Origin: Oxalobacteraceae bacterium
GTDB taxonomy: Bacteria > Pseudomonadota > Gammaproteobacteria > Burkholderiales > Burkholderiaceae_D
Assembly: GCA_027490255.1 (NCBI GenBank)
Contig: JAIXYM010000038.1
Span: forward strand, 6,233 to 70,232
Direction of reading: 5' to 3'
DNA length: 64,000 bases
Shown: positions 49,845 to 50,302 of the stretch, piece after piece
Numbering within the stretch: the stretch's first letter is position 1
Layout of the letters: each line of letters opens with the position of its first letter
The notes under the pieces: generated by a model
The model's database searches: none
Seen by the model: the letters and a program-made list of their open reading frames with translations, nothing else
What the model was told of the DNA's origin: nothing
Translations under genes and position numbers: made by a program

Positions 49845-50302
49845 ACGGCACGGGAGGCCGTAAAAAAAGCTGCACCCGCGTGCAGCTTTTAGGCCGAGCG
49901 CGGTGCGCGCGTTTTCGCGCGCGCCGCATGATGCCGGTTGAAGGTAGCAAAGACTTAGTTCTTCGATTGATCGACGAGTTTGTTCTTTGCAATCCACGGC
50001 ACGGGAGGCCGTAAAAAAGCTGCACCTGCGTGCAGCTTTTAGGCCGAGCGCGGGGTGCGCTTGCAAGCGCATCCCGCATGATGCCGGTTGAACTTAGCAG
50101 GAGCTTAGTTCTTCGACTGATCTACCAACTTGTTTTTAGCAATCCACGGCACGGGAGGCCGTAAAAAAAGCCACCCCTGAGGGTGGCTTTTAGGCCGAGC
50201 GCGGTGCGCGCATTTTCGCGCGCGCCGCATGATGCCGGTTGAAGGTAGCAAAGACTTAGTTCTTCGATTGATCGACAAGTTTATTCTTGGCAATCCAAGG
50301 CA
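49845..50302 (-). repeat. Tandem array (periods 151/150/151 bp) of ilvC 3'-end copies plus two-hairpin spacers
   Basis: The real ilvC end (stop 50256-58) is followed by copies encoding [14 protein letters not shown] with stops at 50105-07 and 49955-57. There are three spacers, each with a 28-nt GC hairpin and a terminator-type hairpin. Confidence 0.97.

What the first reader, a model, noticed from the sequence alone, without database searches (positions are those of the whole stretch)
49955..50302. ilvC 3' end present three times, recoded at synonymous sites only
Real gene: CCT TGG ATT GCC AAG AAT AAA CTT GTC GAT CAA TCG AAG AAC TAA. Copy at 50149-50105: CCG TGG ATT GCT AAA AAC AAG TTG GTA GAT CAG TCG AAG AAC TAA (9 substitutions). 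Copy at 49999-49955: CCG TGG ATT GCA AAG AAC AAA CTC GTC GAT CAA TCG AAG AAC TAA (4 substitutions). All 13 changes are silent ([14 protein letters not shown]). The copies have no SD and follow terminator hairpins, so they are unlikely to be translated now. The distal copy is closer to the real gene than the proximal one, which does not fit simple serial duplication with decay. Inference: these are successive ilvC ends imported from different donors.
Basis: partly seen in the sequence, partly recalled or inferred. Interest (0 to 1): 0.85.

Follow-up and report, generated by a model that had tools for sequence, protein, structure and literature searches.

The report
Stacked alternative ends of ilvC
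Behind the amino-acid biosynthesis gene ilvC sit three head-to-tail 150-base units, each made of the gene's last 14 codons plus its terminator, and the two spare units are genuine ilvC ends found in other strains, left there by recombination rather than forming a new kind of genetic system.

Summary
Window 49845-50302 (minus strand) holds three tandem units of 150-151 bp. Each unit has the last 14 codons and stop of ilvC, a structured 3' UTR, an intrinsic terminator and a 13-nt junction. All 13 substitutions in the coding pieces are silent (chance about 5e-10), and the hairpins differ by compensatory changes. Contigs from four metagenome runs tile the array without a mismatch.

Ten contigs encoding the identical IlvC protein carry one to three or more units. 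The units are permuted and mosaic between strains. Unit 2 is 99.3% identical to the genuine first unit of another strain. The closest ilvC alleles all end in the unit-2 type, so unit 2 looks like the displaced native end and the present end looks like the newcomer.

Similar arrays occur in 5 of 80 Burkholderiales species and in 40 metagenome contigs. Across them pN/pS is about 0.05. No integrase, phage, plasmid or viral copy was found.

Best reading: a copy-number-polymorphic tandem duplication that spans the gene end. It is reshuffled by unequal crossing-over, gene conversion and recombination between strains, next to a hypervariable islet.

Two points remain unexplained: the recurrent left boundary, and the junction conserved across two deep lineages. 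A second array lies at the nuoD start.

The parts
50256..51272 (-). ilvC (ketol-acid reductoisomerase, 338 aa). Its last 14 codons plus stop (50256-50300) form the coding piece of unit 1.
   Evidence: Pfam KARI_N and KARI_C, E-values 2e-72 and 6e-63. ORF list.
50150..50300 (-). Unit 1 (151 nt): real gene end 50256-50300, spacer, GGCATCAT at 50229-50236, hairpin 1 at 50201-50228, terminator hairpin 50170-50187 with T-run 50163-50169, and junction ACGGCCTCCCGTG at 50150-50162.
   Evidence: Sequence, alignment, fold. 96.4% identical to the real single unit of L089.
50000..50149 (-). Unit 2 (150 nt): silent copy of the gene end at 50105-50149, with its own spacer, hairpin 1, terminator and junction. 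Probably the displaced native end of this ilvC allele lineage.
   Evidence: Nine silent differences from unit 1. 99.3% identical to the genuine first unit of L112, and its 45-nt end equals the real ends of L088 and L112. The closest ilvC bodies carry this type of end.
49849..49999 (-). Unit 3 (151 nt): silent copy of the gene end at 49955-49999. Its coding end, spacer and hairpin 1 resemble unit 1, while its terminator resembles unit 2, so it is a mosaic.
   Evidence: Alignment. 98.6% identical to L088 unit 2 and 95.7% to the real first unit of L115.
49845..49848 (-). CCGT, the first four bases of a fourth unit. The repeat ends here and the low-GC islet begins. Together with the preceding TG it gives TGCCGT, matching the gene's TGCC(T/G)T at the left boundary (a microhomology).
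50299..50306 (-). ATGATGCC (codons Met-Met-Pro), the 5' arm of a long-range stem. It is the exact complement of GGCATCAT in the 3' UTR, and it marks the left boundary of the unit.
   Evidence: The minimum-free-energy fold pairs the two. All 8 pairs are invariant in the 20 diverse first units aligned.
46700..49844 (+). Low-GC islet (28-48% G+C against about 54% elsewhere) with two ORFs (46836-47945 and 48111-49805) convergent with ilvC. It lies between the array and psd and differs strongly between strains.
   Evidence: Composition. No Pfam, NCBIfam or PADLOC hit. Orthologues are 84-86%, about 19%, or undetectable in contigs whose IlvC is identical.

Best explanation
This is a tandem duplication of the segment that runs from codon Pro325 of ilvC through the stop codon, the structured 3' UTR and the intrinsic terminator, to 13 nt beyond the T-run. 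It persists as a small array whose copy number varies between strains.

Shown:
- The array has three units in the window and one to three or more in close relatives.
- Units are permuted and mosaic between strains.
- The spare units are near-identical to genuine first-position ilvC ends of other strains.

Inferred:
- The array expands and contracts by unequal crossing-over.
- Short gene-conversion patches move between units.
- Homologous recombination between strains replaces or displaces the first unit. This is plausible because ilvC is highly conserved and borders a hypervariable islet.

Each coding piece has therefore spent almost all of its history as the translated end of a working ilvC allele, and each hairpin as a working 3' UTR. 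That explains why the differences are silent in the codons and compensatory in the stems.

In the window, unit 2 is probably the former native end, and the present real end is a newer patch. The spare copies are probably not translated and probably have no function of their own. At most they add terminators between ilvC and the convergent islet genes.
For: - Structure.
- Read support.
- Copy-number polymorphism and permuted order in 10 contigs with identical IlvC. For example, the L088 coding ends run WIN2, WIN3, WIN1-like.
- Shuffled modules: each of the coding end, spacer, hairpin 1 and terminator occurs in two types, combined in many ways.
- Background diversity: ilvC itself differs by up to 12% of nucleotides among these contigs, and every difference is silent. 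Silent-only differences are therefore simply the standing allelic variation.
- Spare units match real ends elsewhere.
- The allele clade of the window's ilvC carries the unit-2 type as its real end.
- Wider sample: pS is about 0.43 and pN about 0.02 between later and first copies over 58 unique pairs. About a dozen arrays have a second coding end identical to the first, indicating recent duplication. A few copies show real decay: L064, L114, L115/L126, L118, L125.
- Compensatory changes occur in 7 of 11 pairs of hairpin 1 and 8 of 11 pairs of the terminator stem.
- No integrase among neighbouring genes. No copy in phage, plasmid or viral collections.
- The 3' UTR element is found only behind ilvC in 930 kb of fetched DNA.
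- Independent duplications with other boundaries exist (L103, L127).
- A second array of the same style sits at the nuoD start in the same window.
Against: - The left boundary falls at the Pro325/Trp326 codons in arrays whose 3' UTRs look unrelated (L064, L065) as well as in the main class. A generic duplication process does not predict this.
- The junction CTC(C/A)CGTG is conserved between the Oxalobacteraceae-type arrays and the [14 protein letters not shown]-type arrays although their terminators differ. This implies either long persistence, horizontal spread or constraint.
- The codon before Pro in the spare copies is almost always GTG, a possible start codon.
- Rates of unequal crossing-over and conversion were not measured.
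- Metatranscriptome contigs give only weak, ambiguous coverage beyond the first terminator.
- The simple terminator scan flagged none of the three hairpin plus T-run sites.
Confidence: 0.68

Rival explanations
1. The units are footprints of site-specific integration. Integrative elements that target the ilvC 3' end would bring their own replacement end, as e14 does with icd. The stacked units would be what remains after the elements were lost, and the islet would be a remnant of such an element.
For: Replacement ends with silent differences are exactly what e14/icd shows (PMC13626634). The array borders a low-GC islet. The left boundary is constant and the junction is conserved.
Against: - No integrase or recombinase appears in the Pfam lists of the neighbours in 10 related contigs.
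- The units abut directly, with no element DNA between them.
- There is no ilvC-end copy on the far (psd) side of the islet or anywhere else in the window.
- There is no match in phages, plasmids or 2.9 million viral contigs.
- No paper in the library links ilvC to island integration.
- The modules within units are shuffled, which points to homologous rather than site-specific exchange.
Confidence: 0.07
2. Every unit is under selection of its own. Either each is a translated 15-residue mini-ORF (GTG plus [14 protein letters not shown]), or each is a repeated functional RNA derived from the ilvC 3' end, that is, a 3' UTR sRNA gene array.
For: - pN/pS is about 0.05 in the spare copies.
- GTG precedes nearly all spare copies.
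- The 3' UTR element is structurally conserved, with covariation.
- Arrays are strongly associated with the GGCATCAT type of UTR: 3 of 5 species with the exact motif at that position against 2 of about 72 without it.
- Low-level RNA contigs cross the first terminator in related strains.
Against: - There is no Shine-Dalgarno sequence, and each copy sits behind a terminator.
- GTA replaces GTG in L064 and L065, and L003 has no in-frame start.
- An RNA function would conserve nucleotides, not just the amino-acid reading.
- The spare units equal real ends of other strains, which explains the silent pattern without any selection on the copies.
- Some copies have lost the stop codon or carry replacements.
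- No Rfam family matches.
Confidence: 0.1
3. The duplication is structure-guided or driven by one-sided homology. The base of the long-range stem ATGATGCC/GGCATCAT and the base of the terminator domain would act as break or template-switch points. Alternatively, foreign DNA anchored in the conserved ilvC would join illegitimately at TGCC(G/T)T. Either would re-create the same unit repeatedly in different lineages.
For: - The left boundary lies inside the 5' arm of the invariant stem.
- The 6-nt match TGCCGT occurs at both ends of the array in the window and in relatives.
- The same boundary occurs with unrelated downstream sequence in L064 and L065.
- The nuoD array also has a spacer segment complementary to the repeated coding piece.
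Against: L064 and L065 lack the GGCATCAT motif. Internal junctions of the main classes are homologous, which fits one origin rather than many. There is no direct evidence for any break point or for competence in these organisms.
Confidence: 0.12
4. The copies arose by serial duplication in place followed by neutral decay, or the array is an assembly artefact.
For: Tandem layout.
Against: Thirteen of 13 differences being silent has a probability of about 5e-10. The distal copy is closer to the real end than the proximal one. The copies match other strains' real ends. Contigs from four metagenome runs tile the array exactly at flank depth. Arrays are also present in isolate genomes (L003, L004).
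Confidence: 0.01

Closest known systems
e14 prophage and icd/icdC in Escherichia coli K-12
   Same: A conserved metabolic gene ends in one of two alternative 3' ends that differ almost only at silent sites. The other end is kept nearby as a pseudo-fragment, and recombination between them makes functional chimeras (PMC13626634).
   Different: In E. coli the two ends flank a 15-kb prophage and are exchanged by its integrase. Here the ends are stacked head to tail 150 bp apart, with no element and no integrase.
Minimal mobile elements of Neisseria (variable gene sets between fixed conserved flanking genes)
   Same: The islet between ilvC and psd has different, unrelated gene content in strains whose flanking genes are near-identical, and it carries no mobility genes. 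This fits the definition quoted in PMC3787668.
   Different: That concept describes the islet, not the stacked gene ends. As far as I know, a stack of allelic flank ends at the border has not been described for those elements (own knowledge).
Silent-cassette gene conversion (pilE/pilS type) and concerted evolution of tandem repeats
   Same: Untranslated partial copies lie next to an expressed gene. The real end of the window's ilvC carries a short patch that differs from the end type of its allele clade. Mosaic units indicate conversion.
   Different: The cassettes here encode the same peptide, so no protein variation results. It is not shown that the donor of the patch was a spare unit rather than another strain's real end (own knowledge for pilE/pilS).
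Accretion of integrative elements and cis-mobilizable elements at the 3' end of fda in Streptococcus thermophilus
   Same: Repeated copies of the 3' end of a housekeeping gene accumulate in direct orientation downstream of that gene (own knowledge).
   Different: There the repeats are att sites that separate kilobase-sized elements and depend on an integrase. None of this is seen here.

Membership tests
Copy-number-polymorphic tandem repeat (minisatellite-like array) with concerted evolution | Head-to-tail copies of one unit | tested here: met
   TRF gives period 150, 3.0 copies and 81% matches. Alignment.
Copy-number-polymorphic tandem repeat (minisatellite-like array) with concerted evolution | Copy number differs between close relatives | tested here: met
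   Contigs with identical IlvC carry one to three units, with assembly gaps suggesting more in some.
Copy-number-polymorphic tandem repeat (minisatellite-like array) with concerted evolution | Exchange between units (mosaic units, identical neighbouring units) | tested here: met
   Four modules, each in two types, are combined freely. About a dozen arrays have a second coding end identical to the first.
Integrative element attachment-site duplication (e14/icd type) | Integrase or recombinase gene adjacent | tested here: not met
   Pfam lists of all genes within 6 kb in 10 related contigs show none. The two islet ORFs have no family hit.
Integrative element attachment-site duplication (e14/icd type) | Element DNA lies between the repeated gene ends | tested here: not met
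   The units abut directly. There is no copy beyond the islet.
Integrative element attachment-site duplication (e14/icd type) | A copy of the gene end is carried on a free element (attP) | tested here: not met
   No match in the phage, plasmid or viral-contig collections.
Integrative element attachment-site duplication (e14/icd type) | The replacement end encodes the same protein with silent differences | tested here: met
Diversity-generating retroelement (template and variable repeats at a gene's 3' end) | Differences confined to adenines of the template, with a reverse transcriptase nearby | tested here: not met
   The substitutions involve all four bases and change no amino acid. No reverse transcriptase is among the neighbours.
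Described RNA family (Rfam 15) | Match at the gathering score | tested here: not met
   Only sub-threshold hits to the terminator portions of other models.
Intrinsic (Rho-independent) terminator | G+C-rich hairpin followed by a T-run | tested here: inconclusive
   Each unit has a stem of 7-11 bp with a 4-nt loop, then 6-7 T. These appear in the predicted folds and show compensatory changes. However, the simple consensus scan reported none, and termination was not measured.
Minimal mobile element (for the adjacent islet) | Different gene content between the same conserved flanking genes in close relatives, with no mobility genes | tested here: met
   IlvH is 99-100% and Psd 92-98% identical (87% over the partial L089 match), while the islet proteins are 84-86%, about 19% or undetectable.

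The most novel reading that the evidence does not exclude
The array could be a maintained device rather than a by-product. The last 14 codons plus spacer would form a cassette closed by an invariant 8-bp stem (AUGAUGCC/GGCAUCAU). Stacked cassettes with a conserved junction would persist across at least two deep Burkholderiales lineages. They would serve as donors for conversion of the real ilvC end, or as portable homology that eases swapping of the neighbouring hypervariable islet. A related mechanism would then account for the nuoD-start array in the same window.
Probability: 0.12. Interest if true: 0.75.

Novelty: new variant of a known kind. Interest (0 to 1): 0.45.

Why it matters
The array shows that a short tandem repeat straddling a gene end can act as a small archive of alleles. 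The untranslated copies keep a perfect reading frame because they were recently the real end in some strain, not because they are used. This is a caution for annotation and for dN/dS-based inference of function: silent-only divergence in an untranslated copy need not mean that the copy is selected.

The array also marks an active recombination border between a very conserved core gene and a hypervariable islet in freshwater Burkholderiales. It offers a compact natural marker, about 450 bp, for following recombination between strains in metagenomes.

The conserved ilvC 3' UTR element, and the recurrence of the same unit boundary in several lineages, are open questions that can be tested in available isolates.

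Tried and rejected
- Rfam search of the array and of the nuoD array: nothing at threshold.
- Phage and plasmid BLAST, and a degenerate-pattern scan of viral contigs for ilvC ends: nothing relevant. The only hits were Sinorhizobium ilvC genes on large replicons.
- Literature search for ilvC as an island integration site: no paper. One search failed on syntax.
- Search for further copies of the gene end or of unit pieces elsewhere in the window, including beyond the islet: none.
- A possible outer pairing between the Leu-Arg-Ala codons (GCGGG) and the junction (CCCGU), suggested by the fold, was checked against about 35 arrays. It does not covary, so it was dropped.
- A possible extension of unit homology upstream to the Leu320 codon (TTACGNNCT against TTGCGGGCT): suggestive in L128 but weak overall, and absent in the PWIKKN class. 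Left open.
- Diversity-generating retroelement, retron and transposon-end readings were considered and rejected. The substitutions are not adenine-specific, there is no reverse transcriptase or transposase, and the unit is not dispersed.
- Metatranscriptome contigs were laid on the region. They were too sparse and too mixed with relatives to say whether units 2 and 3 are transcribed.
- Look-ups of NuoC and NuoD to compare the nuoD array between strains returned only contigs that break inside the repeat.
- The simple terminator scan gave no hits although the hairpins and T-runs are evident.
- A scan of the window for other gene tails repeated downstream found only ilvC.

Full report
**What is there.**
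Read on the minus strand, ilvC (50256-51272; KARI_N and KARI_C domains) is followed by three head-to-tail units of 151, 150 and 151 nt, spanning 50300 down to 49849. These are followed by CCGT, the first four bases of a fourth unit. Each unit has the following parts:
- the last 14 codons and the stop codon of ilvC ([14 protein letters not shown]);
- a spacer of about 20 nt;
- the motif GGCATCAT;
- a G+C-rich hairpin (hairpin 1);
- a second hairpin followed by six or seven T, which reads as an intrinsic terminator;
- the 13-nt junction ACGGCCTCCCGTG.

The folds are well below those of shuffled sequence, with z-scores of -5.3 to -5.8. Only 26 of 135 possible single changes in this stretch are silent, so the chance probability is about 5e-10. 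Between units the two hairpins differ by compensatory changes. Contigs from four metagenome runs of two studies tile 49946-50276 with no mismatch, at the same depth as the flanks, so the array is not an assembly artefact. Arrays also occur in isolate genomes.

**Context.**
The gene order is ilvI, ilvH, ilvC, the array, a low-GC islet (about 46700-49844, two ORFs convergent with ilvC), then psd, pssA and leuA. The islet proteins match nothing in Pfam, NCBIfam or PADLOC. IlvC is 93% identical to Undibacterium proteins, and the sequence recurs in freshwater metagenomes. The organism is therefore a freshwater member of the Burkholderiales, close to the Oxalobacteraceae.

**The array in close relatives.**
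Ten metagenome contigs encode exactly the same IlvC protein. They carry one unit (L089), two units, or three units, and some have assembly gaps inside the array.
- All 17 spare coding pieces in these contigs translate to the same peptide.
- The order of units differs between strains. In L088 the three coding ends are the window's unit-2 type, its unit-3 type, and its unit-1 type (one base different).
- Each of the four modules (coding end, spacer, hairpin 1, terminator) occurs in two types, and these are combined in many ways. This is the signature of short exchanges between units.
- The whole ilvC gene differs by up to 117 of 972 nucleotides among these contigs without a single amino-acid change.

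Silent-only variation is therefore simply how ilvC alleles differ in this population.

The 45-nt end of unit 2 is identical to the real, first-position ends of L088 and L112. Over 138 nt (coding end, UTR and terminator), unit 2 is 99.3% identical to the genuine first unit of L112, against only 77.5% to the window's own unit 1. Unit 3 is 98.6% identical to L088 unit 2 and 95.7% to the real first unit of L115. Unit 1 is 96.4% identical to the only unit of L089. The spare copies are therefore natural ilvC ends.

The direction can also be inferred. The six ilvC bodies closest to the window's (3.9-5.6% divergence) all end in the unit-2 type. The window's own real end resembles the ends of alleles that are 9-12% diverged. 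Against its nearest relative, L088, the window differs in a dense patch from gene position 975 to about 1030, possibly starting at 960. This patch covers the coding end and the spacer, and the sequences are almost identical on either side of it. Unit 2 is thus best read as the displaced native end, and the present end as a newer patch. I cannot tell whether the patch came from another strain's real end or from a spare unit.

**Spread.**
- Among 80 Burkholderiales species genomes, five have the same kind of array: Undibacterium sp. Ji49W, Herminiimonas glaciei, and three metagenome-assembled genomes.
- A degenerate two-copy pattern found 40 more arrays in metagenome contigs.
- Over 58 unique pairs of a later copy and its own first copy, pS is about 0.43 and pN about 0.02. 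The pN value is inflated by the two-step leucine path.
- About a dozen arrays have a second coding end identical to the first, indicating recent duplication.
- A few copies show real decay: replacements in L064, L114 and L115/L126, and a lost stop codon in L118 and L125.
- Two arrays (L103, L127) have a different left boundary further upstream, so duplication across this gene end has happened more than once.

**The 3' UTR.**
GGCATCAT is the exact reverse complement of ATGATGCC, the Met-Met-Pro codons that lie at the left boundary of the unit. The predicted fold pairs the two and so encloses the last 14 codons. In 20 diverse first units, all eight pairs are invariant. Hairpin 1, whose loop is usually CUUGCAAG, has compensatory changes in 7 of 11 pairs, and the terminator stem in 8 of 11. 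Spare units carry (C)GTGCC at that position, which keeps five of the pairs.
- The exact motif at this position occurs in only 5 of 78 species loci. Three of those have arrays, against 2 of about 72 without it.
- The element is found only behind ilvC in 930 kb of fetched DNA.
- It matches no Rfam family.

**Mechanism.**
The simplest account is a tandem duplication across the gene end that was tolerated because one complete end remains. It probably formed between the similar short sequences TGCC(T/G)T at the Met-Pro codons and just beyond the terminator. The array then expands and contracts by unequal crossing-over, exchanges short patches between units, and is reshuffled by homologous recombination between strains. 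The adjacent islet differs completely between strains that share identical IlvC and near-identical Psd. It therefore behaves like a minimal mobile element as defined for Neisseria (PMC3787668), and this border is likely to see frequent recombination. Because units are displaced from, and return to, the first position faster than they mutate, the spare copies look selected without being used.

**Rivals.**
- An e14/icd-like integrative origin has the right logic (PMC13626634). It fails on every testable defining feature except the silent replacement end: no integrase, no DNA between the ends, no far-side copy, and no free-element copy.
- Translation of GTG-initiated mini-ORFs, or an sRNA array, is not excluded. 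However, there is no Shine-Dalgarno sequence, some lineages have GTA or no start codon, and the match to other strains' real ends makes such selection unnecessary.
- Neutral decay and assembly artefact are refuted.

**Unexplained.**
- The Pro325 boundary recurs with downstream sequences that look unrelated (L064, L065).
- The junction CTC(C/A)CGTG is conserved between the Oxalobacteraceae-type arrays and the [14 protein letters not shown]-type arrays.
- The same window holds a second array at the nuoC/nuoD junction (35910-36238). It has three copies of the first 12 codons of nuoD that differ only silently. They are separated by a 109-nt spacer that is not native nuo sequence, contains two hairpins and a ribosome-binding site, and again has a segment complementary to the repeated coding piece.

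These points keep open a structure-guided or otherwise specific duplication process. I rate that possibility as a minority one.

**Verdict.**
This is a real and well-supported feature. The mechanism is most likely ordinary recombination acting on a polymorphic tandem duplication. I rate it as a new variant of known kinds (displaced gene ends, silent cassettes, concerted evolution) and of moderate interest.

Noticed in passing
window 35910-36238 (minus strand), nuoC/nuoD junction: A second tandem array with period 145. It holds three copies of the first 12 codons of nuoD ([12 protein letters not shown]) that differ only at silent sites: copy 1 differs from copies 2 and 3 by 6-7 nt, including ATG against GTG. 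The copies are separated by a 109-nt spacer with two hairpins, a GGGAG ribosome-binding site, and a segment (CCGAAATTGAG) complementary to the end of the repeated coding piece. The first two copies open 50-codon ORFs. Contigs of relatives break inside the repeat. There is no Rfam match.
   Followed up: partly
window 46700-49844: A low-GC islet (down to 28% G+C) with two ORFs of 369 and 564 aa that have no family match. In strains with identical IlvC the corresponding genes are 84-86% identical, about 19% identical, or unrecognisable, and the two genes reassort. It behaves like a replacement islet between ilvC and psd.
   Followed up: partly
window 50163-50255 and equivalents; L002-L005, L059, L097-L136: A conserved, undescribed ilvC 3' UTR element. 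GGCAUCAU (complementary to the AUGAUGCC codons) is followed by a hairpin with a CUUGCAAG loop, then GCGCUCGG, then the terminator. It is shared by Oxalobacteraceae-type lineages and a [14 protein letters not shown]-type lineage, and is absent from most other Burkholderiales. Its function is unknown.
   Followed up: partly
L103 (period 125) and L127 (period 128): Tandem duplications of the ilvC end with a different left boundary, at least 7 codons further upstream. In L103 the first copy has lost its stop codon.
   Followed up: no
window 51311-51339, ilvH-ilvC intergenic region: An 8-nt tandem repeat, GGGGTATC x 3.6 (CCCCGATA on the gene strand), just upstream of the ilvC ribosome-binding region.
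   Followed up: no
L081, L082, L084 (between pssA and leuA): Some relatives carry a DUF6036 gene plus a small ORF on the opposite strand between pssA and leuA. The window has only a roughly 270-nt intergenic region there (44789-45061).
   Followed up: no
L003 4252-4349: A run of N lies inside the Undibacterium sp. Ji49W array, so its true unit number is unknown (at least three). Similar N runs occur in L082 and L085.
   Followed up: no
window 49600-50400: The consensus terminator scan reports no site although three hairpins with 6-7 T are plainly present. A likely reason is that the A-tract and T-tract pair and absorb the T-run into the stem.
   Followed up: no
window 62069-62163: A 25-nt tandem repeat, 3.8 copies, 77% matches. 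Not examined.
   Followed up: no
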